From: an uncultured Acidobacteriota bacterium | GTDB lineage: Bacteria; Acidobacteriota; Terriglobia; UBA7540 | Assembly: GCA_963804995.1 (NCBI GenBank) | Contig: CAWDSK010000003.1 | Location: forward strand, 1,024,001-1,088,000 | Length of the DNA: 64,000 nucleotides | Direction of reading: 5' to 3' | Shown here: positions 42,081-55,161 of the stretch, piece after piece | Layout: the number at the start of each line of letters is the position of its first letter | Position numbering within the stretch: the stretch's first letter is position 1 | Notes under the pieces: model-generated | What the model was told of the DNA's origin: nothing | The model's input: the letters and a program-made list of their open reading frames with translations, nothing else | The model's database searches: none | Made by a program: the position numbers and the translations under genes

Positions 42081-43169
42081 CTAGTGTCCTGAGTCAGAAG
42101 TTCGCTTACAAAATCGGGCCACGGCTTCAAGAATTTGGTCAGCCGTTTTGGTCCAAATGAAAGGTTTAGGGTCTTGGTTATAAGTTTCCACGTAGTGCCG
42201 CAAGGTCGCTTCCAGTTCTTGGGTGCTGCGGTGTACTCCGCGCCGGAGTTGTCGTTCGGTCAGGGTCGCGAACCAGCGCTCGACCAAGTTGATCCAGGAC
42301 GACCCGGTGGGAGTAAAGTGCCAATGGTAGCGAGGATGGCGCACCAGCCAGCGTCGAATCGAGGGCGTCTTGTGCGTGCCATAGTTATCCAGAATCAGGT
42401 GCACGTCCAATTGGGCGGGCGTGGCGGCATCGACCGTGTCCAGAAACTGGCGAAACTCGATGGCGCGATGCCGACGATGGCACTCGCCGATGACTTGGCC
42501 ACTGGCCATCTCCAGAGCGGCAAACAGCGAGGTGGTGCCATGGCGCTCGTAATCGTGCGTTCGCCGCTCGATCTGCCCGGGTCGCAGGGGGAGCAAAGGT
42601 TGGGTTCGGTCCAAGGCTTGGATCTGGGCCTTTTCATCCACGCAGAGCACCAAGGCCCGTTCGGGCGGGTTCAGATAGAGTCCCACGATATCCCGCACCT
42701 TCTCGATAAACAGCGGGTCGCGCGACAGTTTGAAGGTTTCGCTGCGATGGGGTTGCAAGGCAAAGGCCCGCCAGATGCGGCTGACCGCACTCTGGCTCAT
42801 CCCGCAACGCCGGGCCATCAGTCGGGTGCTCCAGTGGGTCGCGTTCGACGGCATCGATTCCAGCGTCATGGTCAATACCTGTTCCACCTGCGCGTCGTGG
42901 ATCTGGCGCGGTGCTCCGGGGCGGGGTTCGTCCAGCAGCCCCTCCAGACGCTGGGCGACGAATCGGCCTCGCCACTTGCCCACGGTTCGCTGACACAACC
43001 GCAGGGCAAGGCTCACTTCGGTATTGCTTTGGTCCTCCGCGCAGGCCAGTACAATGCGCGCGCGCAACGCCAGCGCTTGCGCCGTTTTCGGCCGCCGTGC
43101 CCAGCGCTGCAAGGTTTCGCGCTCTTCCAAGCTCAAACTCAATTTCGGTATAGGGCGTCCTCGTGGCAT
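42081..43169 (-). CDS. IS630 transposase
   Basis: HTH N-terminus; [24 protein letters not shown] (DDE); stop codon uses the flanking TA. Confidence 0.96.
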
Positions 43170-44569: not shown

Positions 44570-44605
44570 GGGCGCACCACCAAGCCATGCAGGCACGGGC
44601 TGGCG

Positions 44606-46518
44606 GTTGCGGTAGGGATACCGGTTACCCGGTACCCCCCGCACGGATCCGTACGTGCGCTGGTTAGCGCATACGGCTCTTATCTCGGATGTGTGGCGGC
44701 GAACCGTTGGGATGGCCAAGGATGCACAACGTGCGGAGCAGGCAACCAGCAGGCCGCAAGCTTCCCCAGTCGGTCCCAGTTGAGGCGGTGGCGTTGACTG
44801 CGTTGACGCAGTTGTGTTCGCCACAGTCGGGTCAACCGTTCCCGAAAGATTCGCAGGCGGTTGAGGTTTCCCGGTACCGCGTGATAGTTGAAGTAGCCTT
44901 GCACGACCGACCGGAGCCATTTACCCGTATCCGCGATGGGATCGTGCCGACGCTGCCGGAGTTGTTGCTTGAGTTCCTGCAACTTCCCCCGCAGGCGCTT
45001 GCTGATCGTCTTCCGCTTCACGGTAAATTGCCCCCTCCGGTTCTTCCCGCTGATATGCGTGAAGCCCAGAAAGTCGAACGTCTCCGGCTTACCTTCTCCT
45101 CTCCGTTTCCGGTAAAGTTCGGCAAACGGCCCGAACTCGATCCGGCGCGTTTTGTCAGGATGCAGTTCCAATCCAAACTTCCCCACCCGCTCCCGGAAAT
45201 CCTCCAGAAAGCGGTCGGCTTCCGTCTGCGCTTGGAATCCAAGGACCGTATCGTCGGCATACCGCACCACGACCACGTCTCCCCGGGCGTGCTTCTTGCG
45301 CCACGCCTGCACCCACAGGTCAAAGACGTAGTGCAGATAGATATTCGCCAGCAGGGGCGAGACCACCGCCCCTTGTGGCGTACCCATCTCCGTCTCCGAC
45401 CATTCGCCTTCCTCCCTCACCCCGGCTTTCAGCCATTTCTGGATGAGCCGGAGAATCCGGGGGTCGGCGACGCGATGCTGCACGAACTTGAGCATCCATT
45501 CGTGGGATATCGAATCGAAAAATCCACGAATGTCCGCGTCAAGAACGTAGTTCACGTGCTTCACCGTGAGCGCGTACGAGAGCGCGTCCAGCGCTTGATG
45601 CTGGCTGCGTCCCGGTCGAAAGCCATACGAGAAGCCCAGAAAGTCTTCCTCGTAAATCGCCTTGAGGATGGTGACCACGGCCTGTTGGACGATCTTGTCC
45701 TCCAGTGCCGCAACCCCCAACGGACGTTGCCGCCCGTCGCCTTTCGGGATATACGCCCTTCGCGAGGGCTTCGCTCGGAATGCTCCGCGGTGGACCCGGC
45801 TGTGCAGATCGACGAGTCGACCTTCCAGCCCGCTTTCATACTCCTGCCACGTCATGCCGTCTACTCCCGGTGCAGCTTTTCGCTTCAAGGCGTAAAAGCT
45901 TTCCCGCAGCAGATCGACCGTTAAGTGGTGGAGCAAGGCCGTGAACTTCATCTCCCTGTGTTCCTTCGCGGCTTTCCGCACACCCGCGAGTCCCTGGGAC
46001 ACGCGTGCCCCGCTCTGTGTCGGGTGCGTGTTAGGCCAACGGGTGTTCTCCTTGATCAGCGGCCTTCCCTCCTCATTCTCCGCCAACGGCTTCCCGTCTT
46101 TGTTCAAATGATTCATCGGTACTGTTCCGCTGTCCGACTCCTCGAGAGCGTGCAGGCGGGCTGTACGGCCATCGCCTTTTCCCGCCGTCCGGCCACGATC
46201 TACGGCGGCCGGCGCCTCCGAGGTCTCCCGGTTCTCGTGCAGAAAGTGTCTAGGCGTGTCTGGGGTCTACGACTACGCAGGACTGTGCCGGAACTCGCGT
46301 TGGCGTCCCGGCCTCATGTTGCCTTCCGTTTAGTCTGAAAACGTCGGCGTCCTGATTGGACATTTTCGAAGCTCAATACCCAGCCCACCTATTCCCCTGT
46401 TTACGCTTCACCGTGCGCCTCACGACGCCCAGCGCAAAACTCGGGGCCGAGTGGATTGCTGCTCCTTCCTCGTGAGAAATTTTCATTCTCTGCTTTCTGC
46501 CGGTTTATCCCGGCGCAC
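44606..46518 (-). mobile_element. Group II intron, copy 1 (1913 bp)
   Basis: 5' GTGCG; domain V GAGCCGTATGCG...CGCACGTACGGATC (AGC triad); domain VI ending ...CCCTACCGCAAC; boundaries confirmed by comparison with copy 2. Confidence 0.96.
44680..46116 (-). CDS. ltrA: Group II intron reverse transcriptase/maturase, no endonuclease domain
   Basis: APGVDG, RPLG, FSYGFRPGR, GTPQGAVVSPLLANIYL, RYADD, FDFLGF; resembles bacterial class E IEPs (class is inference). Confidence 0.95.
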   Translation of the reverse strand: MNHLNKDGKPLAENEEGRPLIKENTRWPNTHPTQSGARVSQGLAGVRKAAKEHREMKFTALLHHLTVDLLRESFYALKRKAAPGVDGMTWQEYESGLEGRLVDLHSRVHRGAFRAKPSRRAYIPKGDGRQRPLGVAALEDKIVQQAVVTILKAIYEEDFLGFSYGFRPGRSQHQALDALSYALTVKHVNYVLDADIRGFFDSISHEWMLKFVQHRVADPRILRLIQKWLKAGVREEGEWSETEMGTPQGAVVSPLLANIYLHYVFDLWVQAWRKKHARGDVVVVRYADDTVLGFQAQTEADRFLEDFRERVGKFGLELHPDKTRRIEFGPFAELYRKRRGEGKPETFDFLGFTHISGKNRRGQFTVKRKTISKRLRGKLQELKQQLRQRRHDPIADTGKWLRSVVQGYFNYHAVPGNLNRLRIFRERLTRLWRTQLRQRSQRHRLNWDRLGKLAACWLPAPHVVHPWPSQRFAATHPR

Positions 46519-46589
46519 CAGACTCCTGTACTTTGGAGTCTGCGATGTCCCAAAGGGACACTCGCTCGGCAATGGATCAGGTCCACTCT

Positions 46590-46718
46590 GGGGCACCGCA
46601 GACCCCAAAGGTCGGGGGTCTGCGCCAGCCGGTGTACAGCCTGGGACCACTGCATTTCAGAATGAGCCTCAACCCGGGGCACCGCAGACCCCAAAGGTCG
46701 GGGGTCTGCGCCAGCCGG
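46590..46718 (+). repeat. Two identical 43-bp REP units (GCAGACCCC-AAAGGTCG-GGGGTCTGCGCCAGCC), 86-bp period
   Basis: 46590-46632 and 46676-46718. Confidence 0.92.
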
Positions 46719-46957
46719 CGTGGGTTTTACCCGGGCGATGCTCCAAGCAGCGTTGGACGGCTAGCTCCATGCAGATTGACTGCGGACGGTTGCCACTGGG
46801 ATATCGGGCGTGAGAAGCGCCCACGGTCAGAAAAAACGCTGACCGTGGCTACCTCCTCCTGTTTCTTGGGCACTGCGCCAGCCGGCGGTCCGAAGGTGCT
46901 CCGCAACAAGGCGCTCGAACCAAGTGGGGGGAGTTCTCAGGACTTGCGCAATCCGCT

Positions 46958-47899
46958 ATGATGCAGGCCATGGACGTTGCCATCCGCTGCCGCCAACTCC
47001 GCAAAACCTACGAGGGCAATATTGAAGCTGTCCGCGGCCTCGACTTGGAAATCCAGGCCGGTGAATGCTTCGGACTGTTGGGCCCCAATGGCGCAGGCAA
47101 GACAACTACGATTGAAATCCTGGAGGGATTGCTTGAGCCCACCTCCGGCGAGGTTGAAATCCTGGGGAGCACCTGGGACGCGCATAATCGCGAACTGCGT
47201 GAAGTGCTGGGAATATCGCTTCAGGAAACGCGCCTGGCGGAGAAGTTGACCGTGCGAGAGACGGTGGAGCTGTTTGCCAGCTTCTATCGCCGCCCGCGCC
47301 CGCCGGCCGAAGTCATGGCGGAAATAGGGCTCACCGAAAAGGCTGACACCTGGGTGGGGAGGCTTTCCGGCGGGCAGAAACAGCGCCTGGCCGTGGCCAC
47401 CGCCTTGGTGGCAAATCCAAAGATTTTGTTCCTCGACGAGCCCACCACTGGCCTTGACCCGCAGAGTCGCCGCCAGGTATGGGAGATCATTCGACAGTTC
47501 CAGGAGCGGGGCGGGACGGTTCTATTGACGACGCACTACATGGACGAAGCCGAGCGGCTCTCAGACCGCATCGCCATCATCGACCACGGGCTCCTGATTG
47601 CTTCCGGCACGCCGGCGGAATTGATCGAGCGCCTGGGTGGCCACCACATCGTGGAATTCGACGCCTCCGGGGATGGCCTTCGTGACTCAGTTGAGTGGCG
47701 CTCGCTTCCCGGCGTTGAGGCAGTGCACGAGGAAGGCGGCAGAATCCTCTTGAGTGTGCGCGAACCACATCAGACCATCCCCGCGCTGCTGGCAGCCTTG
47801 GAAGCCCGCAACTCGCACCTGCTGCACCTCACCACGCGCCAGGCCAGCCTGGAGGACGTGTTCGTGCATCTTACCGGGCGCCACCTGCGTGAGGAGTAA
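46958..47899 (+). CDS. ABC-2 exporter ATP-binding protein
   Basis: GPNGAGKTT, LSGGQKQR, FLDEPTTGLD, TTHYMDEAE. Confidence 0.95.
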   Translation: MMQAMDVAIRCRQLRKTYEGNIEAVRGLDLEIQAGECFGLLGPNGAGKTTTIEILEGLLEPTSGEVEILGSTWDAHNRELREVLGISLQETRLAEKLTVRETVELFASFYRRPRPPAEVMAEIGLTEKADTWVGRLSGGQKQRLAVATALVANPKILFLDEPTTGLDPQSRRQVWEIIRQFQERGGTVLLTTHYMDEAERLSDRIAIIDHGLLIASGTPAELIERLGGHHIVEFDASGDGLRDSVEWRSLPGVEAVHEEGGRILLSVREPHQTIPALLAALEARNSHLLHLTTRQASLEDVFVHLTGRHLREE

Positions 47900-47979
47900 A
47901 CGGGGTAGTGTGATAGTTTGTGAAGGCTTGTGAGGGGTTGTAAAGGATTCGGCCAGCTACGCCCAACCAGGAGAATAAA

Positions 47980-49052
47980 GTGGGTTCCACCGAAGTCGCG
48001 CTCGAAAACGGCCGCTGGGAAGGATACGCGCACCTGCTCCTGGCGCGCCTGAAGGAAATGTATCGCGAGCCGGAGGTCATCTTCTGGGTGTTCGCGTTTC
48101 CTATCCTTCTGGCACTGGGGTTGGGGATTGCCTTCCGCAACAAGCCCGCCGATACCAGCCGCGTGGTCATCGTGGCGGGCCCGGAAGCGACGCGCGTCTC
48201 ACAACTCCTTAGCGCTGCGACCGCCGGGGGCGTGATTCATGCCGAAGTGCTCCCCGCCGCCGACGCTTTCAACCAGTTTCGCCTCGGCAAATTCGACCTC
48301 GTGGTAACCCCGCAATCTGGCGAGTATGAATACCGCTACGACCCGGCGCGTCCGGAGAGCGTGTTGGCACGCAACACGGTGGATGACGCCCTGCAGACCG
48401 CCGCGGGGAGAAAGAATCCGGTGCCCACCAACAGTCGCGTTTCGAGCGAGGCGGGATCGCGATACATCGACTTCCTGATTCCGGGTTTGCTGGGCATGAA
48501 TTTGATGAACTCGGGCATGTGGGGTGTCGGGTTTGCACTCGTCGATATGCGCCAGCGGAAGCTTCTCAAACGTTTTGTGGCCAGCCCCATGCGACGGGGG
48601 GATTTTCTGCTCGCACTTGCCAGCAGCCGCCTAGTTTTGATGTTAATTGAATTGGCGCTGCTGCTTGGCTTTGGCGTGCTGGTTTTTCACCTGCGCGTCA
48701 TGGGCTCGCTGCTGTCGATCCTGTCATCAGCACGCTAGGAGCGCTTTGCTTCGGTGGAGTAGGCCTGCTCACAGCCAGCCGCGCTCAAAAAATCGAGAGT
48801 GTCAGTGGGCTGATCAATTTGGTCATGATGCCGATGTGGATTCTCTCCGGCGTCTTCTTTTCCTACGAGCGATTCCCTGCCCTCCTGCAACCGCTGATTC
48901 AAGCCCTGCCTCTCACCGCGCTGAATGACGCGCTCCGCGCCGCGATCCTGGAGGGCGCACCGCTCACCCACCAGGCGGTGCGACTCCTCGTGCTCTCCGT
49001 GTGGGGGGTCGGTTCTTATTTCCTGGCCCTGCGCTGGTTTCGGTGGACGTAG
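47980..49052 (+). CDS. ABC-2 exporter permease (frameshift near 48725)
   Basis: FWVFAFPILL, RYIDFLIPGLLGM, LSGVFFS...LPLT. Confidence 0.9.
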
Positions 49053-49054
49053 GG

Positions 49055-49240
49055 GAGAAGTTAGGAGCTAGAAGTTTGGAGATGGGAGTTATGAATTATG
49101 AGTTATGAGTTGAGCGTTAGGATTCAGAGTTGAGGGTTATGGAATCGACATCACGCTAACACCTGACGCCTAACTCATAACTCATAATTCATAACTCATA
49201 ACTTCTAACTCCTAGCTCCTCGCTCCTGGCTCCTGCCCCC
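49055..49240. repeat. Inverted heptamer arrays (GAGTTAT)n / (ATAACTC)n between convergent genes
   Basis: ggagttatgaattatgagttatgagtt ... aactcataactcataattcataactc. Confidence 0.88.
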
Positions 49241-49245
49241 GCTCC

Positions 49246-49905
49246 TCACCGCTTCTTCAAAGTGACCGCCAGCCCGCCCCCCTGCATGTAGAAAATGGTT
49301 TCCAGGTCCTGGTTGGAGGTCACCGCTTTGACGTAATCAGGAACCATCTCGACGTTATGAGCCAGAATCAATCCACCGGGCCGCACGAGGGGCAGGACCT
49401 TATTGAGGTAATCCACATAGCCGGGCTTATCGGCATCGATAAAGGCCAGATCGATGCGCATCTTCAGCTTCGCAACGTTTTCGTGCGCGTCACCCTCCAC
49501 AACCGTGACCAGGGTCTCGACACCGGCATCCTTAAAGTGCCCACGCGCCATTGCTGCCCGCTCGTGATCGATCTCAAACGTGGTCAGGTGGCCGCCTGTC
49601 TTCTCAAGCGCCAGGCAAAACCACAGGCCCGAATACCCTGTCGAAGTACCGATCTCGACAACCTGCTTGGCGTCGGCTGTTTCGGCGAGCAATCGCAGCG
49701 CCTCGCCGTCTTCAAGCGGGACGCTGAGGTAGGTCCGATGGAACTTCACCATGTGATCCATGATGGGCAGAATCTTTTTCTCCGCTTCCGTCTGCGCGAC
49801 CGGGGGATTAGAGGGAAGGGCCGGACGTGCCGGCCGATCTTGGGGTAGAGCCATACCCACCACCGCCAATAGAATACTCATAACTATGACCATGCGCTTC
49901 ATCAT
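49246..49905 (-). CDS. Class I SAM-dependent O-methyltransferase with signal peptide
   Basis: VEIGTSTGYSG, FIDADK...Y, RPGGLILAHNV; N-terminus MKRMVIVMSILLAVVGMA. Confidence 0.9.
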   Translation of the reverse strand: MMKRMVIVMSILLAVVGMALPQDRPARPALPSNPPVAQTEAEKKILPIMDHMVKFHRTYLSVPLEDGEALRLLAETADAKQVVEIGTSTGYSGLWFCLALEKTGGHLTTFEIDHERAAMARGHFKDAGVETLVTVVEGDAHENVAKLKMRIDLAFIDADKPGYVDYLNKVLPLVRPGGLILAHNVEMVPDYVKAVTSNQDLETIFYMQGGGLAVTLKKR

Positions 49906-49944
49906 TTCCAGTCTCCTTAAATGCTATGCTCTCTTGGGCAGGCA

Positions 49945-52668
49945 TTACTGGCCCGTGAGTCGAAAGGAATAATCTCCTGACCCCACCTCAATGGCAAAGT
50001 CGTGGTGCTCCTCCATCACCTTGGTAATTCCCGGATCTCCGGAAACATATTGGCCCTTCTCCCAAATCACTCGGCCATTTTCCTCGATGACAAAATCCGA
50101 CATCCCCCTCGGCTTGGGGATAATCACGCGTGCGTCAGCGCCCACGGGAATCGCCACTTTGAGCGTGACTGCGCCCGGCGATTGGGTCCAGGAGGAAGTA
50201 AGGGCGCCTCGAATCGTTTCCACCGTAGCGGAAGTCCAATCGAGGTCTTCCACAATCTGGGGTTGGATGCGGATGTGCCGATACCCCGCGCCATCTGCGT
50301 CCACATTGAGGCCCGCCAGCGCCTGGTAAAACCATGAGCCCACGCTGCCGAACATGATGTGATCGTGCGAGTTCATCCCGTGCCCGGTCTTTTCCTGCCA
50401 CAGCTCCCAGAGCGTCGTGGCGCCTCGCGCCAGCATATACCCCCAACTGGGGTAGGTAGTTTGCACCGCAAGGTCATAGGCCAGATCGGAGCGCCCCACG
50501 GCCGTGAGCGCCGGCATCAGGAACTTGACGCCGATAAGGCCTGTCGTGACGTGGGTATTATGATAATAGACTATATCATTGGTAAGGTTCATGGCCACCG
50601 CGCCGCGCCGGTCCTCTGGAACCAGATCGAGGTACAGGGCCATGGCGTTGGCGGTCTGAGTGCCGTTCGCATACTGATTAGTATCGGCGTGGAAGAAGGT
50701 GCGATTCAAGGCCTCGCGAATTCCCTGCGCAAGCTGGCTGTATGAAGCTGCCTCCGTGGAATTCCCCAGAACTCCCTCGATTCGCGCCAGAGTCTCCACA
50801 TCGTCGTAGTACCAGATATCCGCAATGTAATCATAGGGAGTGTGCTCAATCTCCACCCAATCCCCTTCGTGTCCGAAGTGGGCGCGGAAAACATTGTCGG
50901 TCGCCTGGCGGCGGAGGAACTCCACATATTTCTTCAGACCCTTCTCGTTTTGCTCCAAAATGCGTCGATCCCCGTACTGCTCCCACATGTACCAACAAAG
51001 CAATGGATAGGCCGTCTCCCAGCCGAGGTCTGCCGGGTACATGCCGTACTTGCGCGGGACGGTGGCGGGCAGCGCCCCGTCCGGCCCCTGGGCGTCCGCG
51101 ATGTCGCGGATGAAGTTGGTGTAGAACGCCGCCATATCGAAATTCAGCATGGCTTCTTCCCCGGTCGCCCAGGCGTCACCCATCCAACCCTGGCGCTCAT
51201 TGCGCTGGTCGCAATCGGTCGGAACGCTCATCAGGTTGGTGAGCTGGGACCAGTGAATGAGCCTCTGGATATCATTGAGGATGGGCTTGGAGGCCAGAAA
51301 GCTTCCCGTTGTGTTTACAGCCGTGTGCACCACCCGCCCACGCAACGAATCCAGACTGGGAGTTCCGGGGAACCCCGTCACCTCAACGTAGCGGAATCCA
51401 TGGTAGGTGAACCGCGCCTCGTAAGTCTCAACCCCCTCCCCACGCAGGGTATAAACATCGCGGGATTTAGCTGTATTGATAGTAGCACGGTTGAGCATAC
51501 CGTTCTCATAAAGCAACTCGGCATAGCGCAGAGTGACCTGGGTCCCTGCCGGTCCCTGTACCCGCAAGCGGGCCCAGCCGCTCATGTTCTGCCCCATGTC
51601 GAAAAGGTACACCCCGGGCTGAGGACTGGTAAGGCGCACGGGGACAAGGGTGTCGACAACCCGGATGGGTGGCATCATCTGCGCGGAGCGAATGCCCGCC
51701 GAGCCTTCGACCGTCTGTGCGGCGCTCCAGGCGGAGTCGTCGAATCCCGGTGTGTCCCACCCCGTCGTTTCGCGGCGCGCGTCATAAACTTCGCCATCAA
51801 AAATGCTGTCTTCGAGGATCGGCCCGCGCGTGGTTTTCCAGGCGCCATCACTTGCGACGCTGAGTTGCCGGCCACCCTCCATCTCAATATTCATTTGCAG
51901 GAGAAAGGCGGGTGACTGGTAGTAGGCAAAATCCGCAAACTGCGTTGCCCAACCGCCGCCCAGCGTGACGGCAACCGCATTCGGCCCCTGGCGCAGGGCG
52001 GAAGAGATGTCATAAGTCGAATAGAGGACCCGCTGCGGATAGGTCGTCCATCCCGGGTCTAACACATTCTGGCCGATCTTCCTTCCGTTTACTCTTAACT
52101 CGTAATAACCCAGGGCGGTTATGTAGACGCGGGCGCCCGTTGCCCCTGCGCTCAACGTAAATTCTTTGCGGAACTCATTGCCCTTGCCGCTCCCGCCGCC
52201 GATCCAAACCCCCTTCCACTCGTCTCGAGACAAGAGTCCCATGCCAAACCGCGCCGTCCGGCTATAGCCGCTCCCCTTCCCTTCCTTGTCCCAGTACCGC
52301 ACCTTCCAGTAGTAGGCCCGGCCACTTTCAAGTGCCTTGCCACCGTAGACGACCTGGGTGGAATCCTCCGATTGCACCTTGCCGCTGTCCCATTGGTCAC
52401 CGCGATCTTGCGCCAGGGTGTCAGGCTTGGTGGCAACCAGCACCTGGTAGGCGACCTGTTTCTCGCCGCGTTCGGAATGAGCGAGCACCCAGGAAAAGCG
52501 GGGCCGTGGCGTATCGACACCCATCGGATCAGAAAGGTACTCACAGCGCAGGTTCGCGGGCGCTCCGGGTCCGCTGACAGTCTGGCAATAGGACGATGCG
52601 AGCCCGTACCACACTGACAAAATCCCAACCAGGACGAACCTCGTGAAGAAGTTATACATTTTGAACAT
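49945..52668 (-). CDS. Alpha-L-rhamnosidase, GH78
   Basis: NLRCEY, FDMGQNMSG, FTYHGFRYV, PTDCDQRNERQGWMGD, GATTLWE, NSHDHIMFG. Confidence 0.95.
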   Translation of the reverse strand: MFKMYNFFTRFVLVGILSVWYGLASSYCQTVSGPGAPANLRCEYLSDPMGVDTPRPRFSWVLAHSERGEKQVAYQVLVATKPDTLAQDRGDQWDSGKVQSEDSTQVVYGGKALESGRAYYWKVRYWDKEGKGSGYSRTARFGMGLLSRDEWKGVWIGGGSGKGNEFRKEFTLSAGATGARVYITALGYYELRVNGRKIGQNVLDPGWTTYPQRVLYSTYDISSALRQGPNAVAVTLGGGWATQFADFAYYQSPAFLLQMNIEMEGGRQLSVASDGAWKTTRGPILEDSIFDGEVYDARRETTGWDTPGFDDSAWSAAQTVEGSAGIRSAQMMPPIRVVDTLVPVRLTSPQPGVYLFDMGQNMSGWARLRVQGPAGTQVTLRYAELLYENGMLNRATINTAKSRDVYTLRGEGVETYEARFTYHGFRYVEVTGFPGTPSLDSLRGRVVHTAVNTTGSFLASKPILNDIQRLIHWSQLTNLMSVPTDCDQRNERQGWMGDAWATGEEAMLNFDMAAFYTNFIRDIADAQGPDGALPATVPRKYGMYPADLGWETAYPLLCWYMWEQYGDRRILEQNEKGLKKYVEFLRRQATDNVFRAHFGHEGDWVEIEHTPYDYIADIWYYDDVETLARIEGVLGNSTEAASYSQLAQGIREALNRTFFHADTNQYANGTQTANAMALYLDLVPEDRRGAVAMNLTNDIVYYHNTHVTTGLIGVKFLMPALTAVGRSDLAYDLAVQTTYPSWGYMLARGATTLWELWQEKTGHGMNSHDHIMFGSVGSWFYQALAGLNVDADGAGYRHIRIQPQIVEDLDWTSATVETIRGALTSSWTQSPGAVTLKVAIPVGADARVIIPKPRGMSDFVIEENGRVIWEKGQYVSGDPGITKVMEEHHDFAIEVGSGDYSFRLTGQ

Positions 52669-52896
52669 GGATATTTCCTCCAAATGCGGAAAGTGGGACG
52701 ACATCGGGACAAAACCGGGAAGAGTTATTGCGACTAATGTGTATCACACCGGGGCGCGAGGAGTCGACACCTGAATGCGGCCACCGGCGCTGCGCCGCCT
52801 CGCTGAAGAGCGCGTAGCGCACCGTCGTTAAGGTCTGCGGTTCTTCGTTTGCCGATTGAATAAATGTATCGTGGTGCAGAAGCCGCCCGTGTAGCG

Positions 52897-54809
52897 GTTG
52901 CGGTAGGGATACCGGTTACCCGGTACCCCCCGCACGGATCCGTACGTGCGCTGGTTAGCGCATACGGCTCTTATCTCGGATGTGTGGCGGCGAACCGTTG
53001 GGATGGCCAAGGATGCACAACGTGCGGAGCAGGCAACCAGCAGGCCGCAAGCTTCCCCAGTCGGTCCCAGTTGAGGCGGTGGCGTTGACTGCGTTGACGC
53101 AGTTGTGTTCGCCACAGTCGGGTCAACCGTTCCCGAAAGATTCGCAGGCGGTCGAGGTTTCCCGGTACCGCGTGATAGTTGAAGTAGCCTTGCACGACCG
53201 ACCGGAGCCATTTACCCGTATCCGCGATGGGATCGTGCCGACGCTGCCGGAGTTGTTGCTTGAGTTCCTGCAACTTCCCCCGCAGGCGCTTGCTGATCGT
53301 CTTCCGCTTCACGGTAAATTGCCCCCTCCGGTTCTTCCCGCTGATATGCGTGAAGCCCAGAAAGTCGAACGTCTCCGGCTTACCTTCTCCTCTCCGTTTC
53401 CGGTAAAGTTCGGCAAACGGCCCGAACTCGATCCGGCGCGTTTTGTCAGGATGCAGTTCCAATCCAAACTTCCCCACCCGCTCCCGGAAATCCTCCAGAA
53501 AGCGGTCGGCTTCCGTCTGCGATTGGAATCCAAGGACCGTATCGTCGGCATACCGCACCACGACCACGTCTCCCCGGGCGTGCTTCTTGCGCCACGCCTG
53601 CACCCACAGGTCAAAGACGTAGTGCAGATAGATATTCGCCAGCAGGGGCGAGACCACCGCCCCTTGTGGCGTACCCATCTCCGTCTCCGACCATTCGCCT
53701 TCCTCCCTCACCCCGGCTTTCAGCCATTTCTGGATGAGCCGGAGAATCCGGGGGTCGGCGACGCGATGCTGCACGAACTTGAGCATCCATTCGTGGGATA
53801 TCGAATCGAAAAATCCACGAATGTCCGCGTCAAGAACGTAGTTCACGTGCTTCACCGTGAGCGCGTACGAGGGCGCGTCCAGCGCTTGATGCTGGCTGCA
53901 TCCCGGTCGAAAGCCATACGAGAAGCCCAGAAAGTCTTCCTCGTAAATCGCATTGAGGATGGTGACCACGGCCTGTTGGACGATCTTGTCCTCCAGTGCC
54001 GCAACCCCCAACGGACGTTGCCGCCCGTCGCCTTTCGGGATATACGCCCTTCGCGAGGGCTTCGCTCGGAATGCTCCGCGGTGGACCCGGCTGTGCAGAT
54101 CGACGAGTCGACCTTCCAGCCCGCTTTCATACTCCTGCCACGTCATGCCGTCTACTCCCGGTGCAGCTTTTCGCTTCAAGGCGTAAAAGCTTTCCCGCAG
54201 CAGATCGACCGTTAAGTGGTGGAGCAAGGCCGTGAACTTCATCTCCCTGTGTTCCTTCGCGGCTTTCCGCACACCCGCGAGTCCCTGGGACACGCGTGCC
54301 CCGCTCTGTGTCGGGTGCGTGTTAGGCCAACGGGTGTTCTCCTTGATCAGCGGCCTTCCCTCCTCATTCTCCGCCAACGGCTTCCCGTCTTTGTTCAAAT
54401 GATTCATCGGCACTGTTCCGCTGTCCGACTCCTCGAAAGCGTGCAGGCGGGCTGTACGGCCATCGCCTTTTCCCGCCGTCCGGCCACGATCTACGGCGGC
54501 CGGCGCCTCCGAGGTCTCCCGGTTCTCGTGCAGAAAGTGTCTAGGCGTGTCTGGGGTCTACGACTACGCAGGACTGTGCCGGAACTCGCGTTGGCGTCCC
54601 GGCCTCATGTTGCCTTCCGTTTAGTCTGAAAACGTCGGCGTCCTGATTGGACATTTTCGAAGCTCAATACCCAGCCCACCTATTCCCCTGTTTACGCTTC
54701 ACCGTGCGCCTCACGACGCCCAGCGCAAAACTCGGGGCCGAGTGGATCGCTGCTCCTTCCTCGTGAGAAATTTTCATTCTCTGCTTTCTGCCGGTTTATC
54801 CCGGCGCAC
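52897..54809 (-). mobile_element. Group II intron, copy 2 (1913 bp)
   Basis: Offset 8291 bp from copy 1 with the same GTGCG...AAC ends; about 8 substitutions seen by eye. Confidence 0.96.
52971..54407 (-). CDS. ltrA: Group II intron reverse transcriptase/maturase
   Basis: Near-identical to 44680-46116 (five amino-acid differences seen). Confidence 0.95.
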   Translation of the reverse strand: MNHLNKDGKPLAENEEGRPLIKENTRWPNTHPTQSGARVSQGLAGVRKAAKEHREMKFTALLHHLTVDLLRESFYALKRKAAPGVDGMTWQEYESGLEGRLVDLHSRVHRGAFRAKPSRRAYIPKGDGRQRPLGVAALEDKIVQQAVVTILNAIYEEDFLGFSYGFRPGCSQHQALDAPSYALTVKHVNYVLDADIRGFFDSISHEWMLKFVQHRVADPRILRLIQKWLKAGVREEGEWSETEMGTPQGAVVSPLLANIYLHYVFDLWVQAWRKKHARGDVVVVRYADDTVLGFQSQTEADRFLEDFRERVGKFGLELHPDKTRRIEFGPFAELYRKRRGEGKPETFDFLGFTHISGKNRRGQFTVKRKTISKRLRGKLQELKQQLRQRRHDPIADTGKWLRSVVQGYFNYHAVPGNLDRLRIFRERLTRLWRTQLRQRSQRHRLNWDRLGKLAACWLPAPHVVHPWPSQRFAATHPR

Positions 54810-55161
54810 CAGACCTCCGTCGTTGAGGTCTGCGGTTCTTCGTTTGCCGATTGAATAAATGTATCGTGGTGCAGACGTCGGGTGGAAGATTTGTGGGTAT
54901 TCATTACGAAAAACCGCGGACCCCAAAACCGGGGGACCGCGCTACGAAACATGTCCGCGCTGCGCTTACTTGAATCAACCACCCTCGGTTGCCGCGGCGA
55001 CAGAGGAGGGACCGCGTAGCGGCAGGGCCCCCAGAGAAAAAATAAGCGCCTGATTACCCAAACGGATGTATAGTCATTTCGATAGTCCCTCAAGGCAAAA
55101 ACTTAAACCAGAGTCGGCGAAGACCCAGTGCATGAATTTCCATGAGGCGGAGGATAGAGTC

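What the first reader, a model, noticed from the sequence alone, without database searches (positions are those of the whole stretch)
44606..54835. Group II intron that homes into REP hairpins at a fixed base
Seen: removing each intron restores a REP on the minus strand. Copy 1 gives GCAGACTCC-AAAGTACA-GGAGTCTG|CGCCAGCC and copy 2 gives CCGCAGACCTC-AACGACG-GAGGTCTG|CGCTAC. The loops differ but the insertion base is identical. The intron's stem-loop CGTTT-TCAGACT-AAACG (46327-46343; 54618-54634) presents CAGACU, complementary to the exon ends AGTCTG and GGTCTG (one G-U), i.e. EBS1-IBS1; no EBS2 is evident to me. Established: IIC introns target terminator and attC hairpins, but this intron has a full-length AGC-triad domain V and a class-E-like IEP. 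Inference: it exploits an abundant intergenic repeat as a harmless multicopy homing site.
Basis: partly seen in the sequence, partly recalled or inferred. Interest (0 to 1): 0.78.

Follow-up and report, generated by a model that had tools for sequence, protein, structure and literature searches.

The report
Intron homing into REP repeats
A self-splicing mobile intron has copied itself about forty times in this bacterial genome, always into the same base of a small repeated DNA hairpin between genes, most likely by ordinary guide-RNA pairing aimed at an unusually plentiful and harmless target.

Summary
Confirmed and extended. The two window copies belong to a young burst of 38 full and 2 contig-end copies (mean 3.4 differences in 1,913 nt; 37 of 38 ORFs intact) of an endonuclease-less, class-E-like group II intron. 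Every readable junction restores the same base of a GTAG/CTGG-tagged REP hairpin, and two REP-associated tyrosine transposase genes are flanked by these REPs. One correction: the intron has an EBS2 (UGUCC) that pairs with the REP loop and covaries with the exon across 46 relative types. Occupancy follows EBS1 match, EBS2 match, the REP's tagged arm (35 of 295 against 0 of 492) and the G-rich strand (29 of 129 against 6 of 166), as expected for fork-dependent retrohoming. Whether the hairpin itself is recognised is unresolved; most relatives target non-hairpin sites with the same geometry. IS elements are known to target REPs; my searches found no such report for a group II intron. The scan noted this intron in other windows of this genome and similar cases in other genomes.

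The parts
44606..46518 (-). Group II intron copy 1, 1,913 nt (G000:C3:1068606-1070518)
44680..46116 (-). Intron-encoded RT/maturase, 478 aa, YADD, no endonuclease domain
   Evidence: TIGR04416 346 bits over cut-off 300; Pfam RVT_1 and weak GIIM only
46332..46337 (-). EBS1 CAGACU in the loop of the stem-loop 46327-46343; pairs exon -6..-1
   Evidence: fold; identical in 38 of 38 copies; changes with the exon in relatives
46358..46362 (-). EBS2 UGUCC; pairs exon -13..-9, which is the REP loop
   Evidence: occupancy; covariation over 46 intron types
46326..46326 (-). Probable EBS3 (G) facing exon +1 C
   Evidence: inferred from position after the EBS1 stem; +1 is C in 39 of 39; covariation not shown
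44646..44679 (-). Domain V, 34 nt, AGC triad, non-GNRA loop
   Evidence: read; loop compared
44606..44645 (-). Domain VI with bulged A eight bases from the 3' end
   Evidence: read
46519..46544 (-). 5' part of the split REP of copy 1 (5' arm, loop, most of 3' arm; CTGG-tag family)
44598..44605 (-). 3' part of the split REP of copy 1 (last two stem bases and tag complement)
46597..46628 (+). Empty REP, target side on the + (C-rich) strand
46683..46714 (+). Empty REP, target side on the + (C-rich) strand
52897..54809 (-). Group II intron copy 2, 1,913 nt, 8 differences from copy 1
52971..54407 (-). RT/maturase ORF of copy 2, intact
54623..54628 (-). EBS1 of copy 2
54649..54653 (-). EBS2 of copy 2
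54810..54834 (-). 5' part of the split REP of copy 2 (GTAG-tag family)
52891..52896 (-). 3' part of the split REP of copy 2 (two stem bases and CTAC, the complement of GTAG)
52814..52880 (-). Degenerate tandem REP unit next to copy 2 (3' arm partly lost, empty); repeats the 54810-54875 flank
   Evidence: read
54915..54945 (+). Empty REP variant with a stem mismatch at -4, inverted relative to the occupied REP of copy 2
   Evidence: read; 109 such variants in the genome

Best explanation
An active or very recently active, endonuclease-less class-E-like group II intron whose EBS1, EBS2 and EBS3 have been tuned to the strand complementary to a GTAG/CTGG REP. After transcription from flanking promoters and splicing (inferred), the RNP reverse-splices into single-stranded DNA, mostly the lagging-strand template at the fork (inferred from strand bias), choosing the site by EBS1 with -6..-1, EBS2 with -13..-9 and EBS3 with +1, plus probable protein contacts to the 3' tail (C.A at +3/+5) and perhaps the AA at -15/-14. 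A nascent strand primes cDNA synthesis (established for RmInt1, inferred here). Because the genome holds about 295 such intergenic REP sites, ordinary retrohoming gives about 40 copies at little cost. Each insertion cuts the tag and two stem pairs off the hairpin, so the REP should no longer be a RAYT substrate (inferred). Shown: copies, target, pairings, strand bias. Not shown: splicing, mobility, protein contacts, any role of the fold.
For: 38 full copies, mean 3.4 differences, 37 ORFs intact. Occupancy among 295 tag-side REP sites rises with EBS1 match (T at -2: 31 of 181; C: 4 of 114; p 3e-4), EBS2 match (3 or more of 5 pairs: 34 of 211; fewer: 1 of 84; p 9e-5) and G-rich strand (29 of 129 against 6 of 166; p 7e-7). 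EBS2-exon pairing across 46 intron types 109 of 184 against 69.6 +/- 5.3 shuffled, 0 of 2000 shuffles as high. A 93%-identical relative (G001) has EBS1 CGGACU and EBS2 CGUUC and its 6 copies sit in REPs ending ..CCG with G at -9 in 6 of 6. 41 of 46 relative types use non-hairpin targets with the same EBS geometry, and close sisters in the tree are not REP-targeting. One of 3 copies of an 88%-identical relative in G066 sits at a site with IBS1 and IBS2 but no 5' arm (L179).
Against: Non-hairpin sites with full IBS1, 3 or more IBS2 pairs and CGC are almost unused (1 of 79, and that one is a decayed REP), though I did not test how many lie in genes and most lack YA at +4/+5. Among matched REP sites the occupied ones have slightly more stable stems (-11.7 against -10.9 kcal/mol, 25 and 26 sites, p 0.014). 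In all 36 readable precursors IBS1 is predicted to be buried in the exon hairpin (mean -14.8 kcal/mol against -6.3 for EBS1:IBS1), which simple pairing does not explain. GC skew is weak and the assembly has 9 contigs, so leading-strand calls are approximate. No expression or splicing seen.
Confidence: 0.7

Rival explanations
1. The folded REP hairpin is part of the recognition signal: EBS2 lands on the exposed loop as a toehold, EBS1 (which mimics the REP's 5' arm) displaces that arm, and the IEP reads stem or tail, a non-IIC parallel to terminator and attC targeting.
For: In the folded sites IBS2 (-13..-9), the AA at -15/-14 and the +3..+6 tail are single-stranded while IBS1 and IBS3 are paired. 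Non-hairpin look-alike sites 1 of 79 used against 25 of 51 matched REP sites. Occupied stems slightly stronger. A distant relative (61% aa, L180) and an own-genome remnant (C1:441114) with EBS1 CAGAGC also sit two pairs from the base of a REP-like stem.
Against: The same EBS spacing is used by relatives at non-hairpin sites. The G001 relative prefers REPs with a stem mismatch at -4 (5 of 9 against 1 of 16, counted by eye; p 0.012, or 0.028 on distinct flanks), which points to the stem being an obstacle. L179 lacks the 5' arm.
Confidence: 0.2
2. The intron inserts loosely at many GTCYG|CG-like sites and only the intergenic REP insertions survive selection.
For: All 38 full copies are intergenic.
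Against: The mirror arm of the same hairpins is equally intergenic and offers GTCYG|CG, yet 0 of 492 non-tag-side sites are used, 0 of 9 even with full IBS1, IBS2 match and G-rich strand against 25 of 51 (p 0.007).
Confidence: 0.06
3. Copies were multiplied passively, with the REP by RAYT or by recombination, or are assembly artefacts.
For: Several contigs break at intron copies; a few junctions pair a 5' exon of one REP family with the tail of the other; two RAYT genes are adjacent to copies.
Against: Flanks, loops and REP family differ between copies while the intron is over 99.4% identical; 31 distinct intron sequences among 37 equal-length copies; a split REP cannot form the RAYT substrate; other genomes show the same pattern with changed guides.
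Confidence: 0.04

Closest known systems
Bacterial class E (IIE) group II introns, e.g. Sr.me.I4 of Sinorhizobium meliloti, Cl.be.I2 (PMC3753933: sections 4 and 6 and passages read; PMC4244168: supplementary table part 4 read)
   Same: No En domain, IIB-like RNA of about 476 nt outside the ORF, EBS1 and EBS2, IEP 57% identical to the disrupted RT on pRmeGR4b taken to be Sr.me.I4.
   Different: Target is a REP; about 40 copies; domain V loop is not the 5-nt loop described for IIE/IIF. The genomic data support a role of EBS2 in homing, which Nagy et al. proposed after finding it dispensable for splicing in vitro.
RmInt1 of S. meliloti (class D) homing into ISRm2011-2 (PMC5894124: passages read; PMC8914252: search listing with start of abstract only)
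   Same: En-less intron, multicopy host mobile element as homing site, lagging-strand-template preference.
   Different: Different IEP class (35% identity); target is a 30-nt non-coding palindrome present about 295 times, not an IS gene present 4-13 times; 10 copies in strain GR4 against about 40 here.
Class C (IIC) introns at terminators and attC sites (PMC4424553 and PMC3753933: passages read)
   Same: Insertion tied to a repeated hairpin, strand bias, no En domain.
   Different: IIC lack EBS2 and part of EBS1; here EBS1 is 6 nt, EBS2 exists and the insertion point is inside the stem. That IIC introns insert after the stem and have a short domain V is partly recalled.
REP-targeting IS elements ISPsy8, ISPa11, ISPpu9, ISPpu10, ISRm22 (PMC1525189: passages and part of a table read)
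   Same: All copies at one base of a REP.
   Different: DNA transposases, not RNA-guided retrohoming. The same table lists only 2 of 9 P. putida group II intron copies as REP-associated.
Truncated class E and CL1 (IIB) introns behind attC-like structures (PMC7923331: abstract, sections 7 and 12 read)
   Same: Non-IIC introns next to hairpins, with a suggested role of the structure.
   Different: Single or truncated copies at attC, no REP, no guide covariation test.

Membership tests
Group II intron retroelement | GUGYG...AY ends, DI-DVI with AGC triad and bulged A, RT/maturase in DIV | tested here: met
Group II intron retroelement | Self-splicing and retrohoming activity | not testable with these tools
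   Only indirect: young, intact, dispersed copies; no spliced form in the four runs laid, all contigs
Bacterial class E (IIE) | IEP groups with class E references | tested here: inconclusive
   57% to the disrupted RT on pRmeGR4b against 35% to the intact one; their names Sr.me.I4 (E) and RmInt1 (D) are inferred from PMC5894124. The tree had only these two labelled references, both on long branches, and was a quick search. Class E is likely, not proven.
Bacterial class E (IIE) | No En domain | tested here: met
   Pfam finds no HNH at E 0.1; ORF stops directly before domain V
Bacterial class E (IIE) | EBS1 and EBS2 in DId; RNA 450-700 nt without ORF | tested here: met
   1,913 minus 1,437 nt = 476 nt
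Bacterial class E (IIE) | alpha' at the tip of a DId3 stem-loop | tested here: inconclusive
   A CGCYA candidate lies in the DId3 terminal loop facing YAGCG in DIb, by eye only
Bacterial class E (IIE) | 5-nt domain V loop | tested here: not met
   Loop reads AACC closed by U-A (4 nt, non-GNRA); one distant relative (L025) has a different loop
Class C (IIC) | No EBS2, shortened EBS1 | tested here: not met
   6-nt EBS1 and covarying EBS2
Class C (IIC) | Insertion downstream of a terminator or at attC | tested here: not met
   Insertion is inside the stem of a REP, no T-run follows
GTAG-type REP / RAYT system (target) | Short palindrome with a terminal GTAG-type tag, extragenic, hundreds of copies, often paired | tested here: met
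   295 tag-side sites, 225 with CTAC (GTAG) and 54 with CCAG (CTGG); 49 of 87 neighbours under 300 bp are in one inverted arrangement; definition from PMC3733652 passages
GTAG-type REP / RAYT system (target) | Flanks a REP-associated tyrosine transposase gene | tested here: met
   2 of 14 Y1_Tnp matches are flanked on both sides; both pass NF047646 (115.9 and 109.1 bits, cut-off 80); 10 of 14 have no such REP within 2.5 kb
GTAG-type REP / RAYT system (target) | Bound and cut by the RAYT | not testable with these tools
   needs an in vitro cleavage assay

The most novel reading that the evidence does not exclude
A lineage of non-IIC group II introns in Acidobacteriota has repeatedly evolved into hyperparasites of REP/RAYT systems and reads the folded inverse-REP hairpin by toehold strand invasion: EBS2 binds the loop, EBS1 mimics and displaces the REP's own 5' arm. 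The same hairpin in the precursor RNA would throttle splicing, and each insertion would retire one RAYT substrate, including those beside the RAYT genes.
Probability: 0.25. Interest if true: 0.8.

Novelty: new variant of a known kind. Interest (0 to 1): 0.6.

Why it matters
A 2015 review lists three target habits for bacterial group II introns (homing sites, terminators, attC; PMC4424553). This is homing retuned onto a host repeat family, giving a burst of about 40 copies without hitting a gene. It is also a natural experiment with about 295 variant targets in one genome: it gives genomic support to the proposal that EBS2 of class E introns matters for homing although not for splicing in vitro, and makes testable how an intron splices and homes when its binding site is buried in a stable hairpin. 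It links two selfish systems, since insertion splits the RAYT substrate.

Tried and rejected
'No EBS2': rejected. Class C membership: rejected. Stem strength as a predictor: conflicting between this genome and G001, left open. crashed; one search had an excision bug that duplicated part of contig C2, so its counts were dropped and redone. In one search, 55 of 133 loci could not be parsed and were dropped, EBS1 there was chosen by best pairing and so is not an independent test, and 15 registers were tried for EBS2. The tree (78 of 95 proteins, 17 near-duplicates left out) did not finish its careful search, and its 'REP: 1 change' line only compares against three references, so I do not use it; REP-targeting rows are mixed with non-REP rows in one 11-row clade, and L180 lies outside. 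Sequencing runs: no run held half of the words, all four laid were contigs, no joint skipping the whole intron was listed, RNA run X12 gave scattered pieces mostly of relatives, so nothing on expression; one loose end in DNA run X2 continues from the intron 5' end into the GTAG-family REP arm, but its independence is unknown. The promoter scan found nothing above shuffles. Orientation to neighbouring genes is mixed (upstream gene co-oriented in 21 of 35). EBS3 covariation was not shown. Literature: searches found no paper on a group II intron homing into REPs; finds in 10.64898/2026.09.22.753630, 10.64898/2026.10.21.760802, PMC10011109, PMC12584367, PMC6542083 and PMC3733652 showed no such passage. 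Subscription papers (Toro 2002, Simon 2008, Michel 2007, Waldern 2020) were not searchable and bioRxiv supplements are closed, so a prior mention cannot be excluded.
Full report
Observation. The window holds two copies of a 1,913-nt group II intron on the minus strand, at 44606-46518 and 52897-54809, differing at 8 positions. Each has GTGCG and AAC ends, a domain I hit to Rfam RF02005 at 170 bits, a 478-aa RT/maturase over the TIGR04416 cut-off with no endonuclease domain, a 34-nt AGC-triad domain V and a bulged A in domain VI (read).

Genome-wide census. BLAST of the intron against the 7.55-Mb, 9-contig genome gave 38 full copies at 99.4% identity or more and 2 copies cut by contig ends. Exact end matches gave 39 5' and 39 3' junctions, 38 paired. 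All 37 junctions with at least 36 nt of upstream flank end in GTCYG, all 39 3' exons start CGCYA, and all 36 restorable sites fold into a hairpin with the junction in the 3' arm, mostly two pairs from the base. The 37 equal-length copies differ by 3.4 nt on average and form 31 distinct sequences; 37 of 38 ORFs are intact. All 38 are intergenic by a crude codon-model gene call. Close relatives of the IEP come from Acidobacteriota.

The target is a REP. The reverse complement of the target starts with GTAG (or CTGG) followed by a 10-bp stem, the form described for GTAG REPs (PMC3733652, passages). After removing introns there are 295 tag-side sites with at least 8 of 10 stem pairs, 225 with the GTAG tag and 54 with CTGG; 35 are occupied, and the 36th scored copy sits in a decayed one. 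Of 14 Y1_Tnp matches, 2 are flanked on both sides by these REPs, one by each tag family, and in both one flanking REP carries the intron; 10 have none within 2.5 kb; random windows have one within 600 bp in 3.6% of cases. Both proteins pass the NCBIfam REP-associated tyrosine transposase cut-off. The intron enters the inverse strand of the REP and cuts the tag from the stem; GTAG and the palindrome are both involved in RAYT activity (PMC8266576, passages), so the split REP is probably dead as a substrate (inference).

How the site is chosen. Occupancy is 31 of 181 where -2 is T and 4 of 114 where it is C. In relatives the loop changes with the exon, for example CGGACU with ..CCG sites in the 93%-identical relative of G001. 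Sites with 3 or more of 5 pairs are occupied in 34 of 211 cases, others in 1 of 84; holding EBS1 match and strand fixed, 25 of 54 against 1 of 17. Of 133 loci 78 could be parsed, giving 46 intron types; the four bases after the conserved GAAAA pair with -9..-12 in 109 of 184 positions against 69.6 +/- 5.3 in shuffles (0 of 2000 as high), and 142 against 96.6 +/- 4.6 when a one-base shift is allowed. The types are related, so this overstates significance, but the effect is large. The palindrome offers GTCYG|CG on both strands, yet 0 of 492 non-tag-side sites are used, including 0 of 9 with good IBS1, IBS2 and strand against 25 of 51 tag-side, so the 3' tail or distal loop also counts, probably through the protein (inference). 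Insertions favour the G-rich strand, 29 of 129 against 6 of 166, and 16 of 72 against 1 of 90 where skew is clearer. That strand is the lagging-strand template, the pathway reported for the En-less RmInt1 (PMC8914252, start of abstract; PMC4424553, passage).

Is the hairpin recognised? Not resolved. For: non-hairpin look-alikes are unused (1 of 79) and occupied stems are slightly stronger; in the folded form IBS2 and the tail are exposed while IBS1 is buried. Against: 41 of 46 relative types target non-hairpin sites with the same guide spacing; REP-targeting and non-REP introns are mixed in one small clade (quick tree); in G066 one of 3 copies of an 88%-identical relative is in a complete REP, one has only the 5' half and one lacks the 5' arm; in G001 5 of 6 copies are in REPs with a stem mismatch at -4 although such REPs are the minority (5 of 9 against 1 of 16 among IBS2-matching sites, counted by eye; p 0.012; strand not controlled). 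An unexplained point is that in all 36 readable precursors the exon hairpin is predicted to hide IBS1 (mean -14.8 kcal/mol, unpaired probability at most 0.09, against -6.3 for the EBS1 duplex). EBS2 binding to the loop as a toehold would solve this, but it is untested.

Class. On S. meliloti plasmid pRmeGR4b the IEP matches a frameshifted RT at 57% and an intact one at 35%. PMC5894124 (passages) places the disrupted class E intron S.me.I4 and one RmInt1 copy (class D) on that plasmid, and PMC4244168 (supplementary table, part 4 of 10) lists Sr.me.I4 as class E; matching names to hits is my inference. RNA size and EBS1 plus EBS2 fit class E as described in PMC3753933 (sections 4, 6); the domain V loop does not have the 5 nt described there. 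PMC3552965 was read only in its first quarter. I call it class-E-like; it is not class C.

Novelty. REP targeting is known for IS elements (PMC1525189), multicopy homing sites for RmInt1, hairpin targeting for IIC introns, and attC-adjacent IIB or class E fragments have been reported (PMC7923331). Six searches of the open library found no report of a group II intron homing into REPs; closed journals were not searchable. Earlier notes of this scan describe the same intron in four other windows of this genome and similar introns in other genomes; I reached my reading before seeing them and they are not independent evidence. Verdict: real, a new variant of a known kind, most likely canonical retrohoming onto an abundant repeat (0.7), with a one-in-four chance of a new hairpin-invasion mechanism.

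Noticed in passing
window 47980-49053 (+): The ABC-2 permease gene after the ABC ATPase stops early at 48738 and appears to continue in another frame to about 49053: a frameshift or a sequencing error.
   Followed up: no
window 49055-49240: Intergenic run of short 7-nt-like tandem units followed by their reverse complement, between convergent genes (read).
   Followed up: no
window 42081-43169 (-): Intact IS630-family transposase 1.4 kb from intron copy 1.
   Followed up: no
G000:C3:98297-99070 (+): An apparently ORF-less group II intron sits just behind a different GC-rich hairpin, inside a CTAC-like tail, i.e. another repeat and another base; single copy by a 22-nt probe (lead from note e1-7689323).
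   Followed up: partly
L182, L185, L016: About 650-nt ORF-less relatives of this intron; L182 (G001) is in a REP at the same base.
   Followed up: partly
L014, L024, L098-L103, L106, G000:C1:441114: Relatives whose 5' ends read GTAAGCG, GAAAGCG or GATAGCG, two bases longer than GTGCG, with IBS1 directly upstream.
   Followed up: no
L180, L181 (G001): Two other relatives (61% and about 83% aa) inserted two pairs from the base of CTGG-tagged hairpins but on the mirror arm.
   Followed up: partly
G000:C6:2168574-2172663; C7:1-3885: Adjacent REPs both occupied, giving intron-REP-intron tandems; several contigs end at intron copies.
   Followed up: partly
G000: C1:98027, C1:25430, C9:153774 and others: At least three further group II intron types (10 full RT matches) with their own non-REP targets; one appears inserted into another's domain V (C6:293890).
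   Followed up: partly
G000 C6:842676, C2:652257, C5:460087, C1:206552: 5' fragments of divergent relatives without RT, at non-REP sites.
   Followed up: partly
intron positions 58, 373, 858, 910, 1657, 1704: A few variants are shared by many copies (7-17 of 37), suggesting several donor copies, gene conversion or assembly polishing.
   Followed up: no
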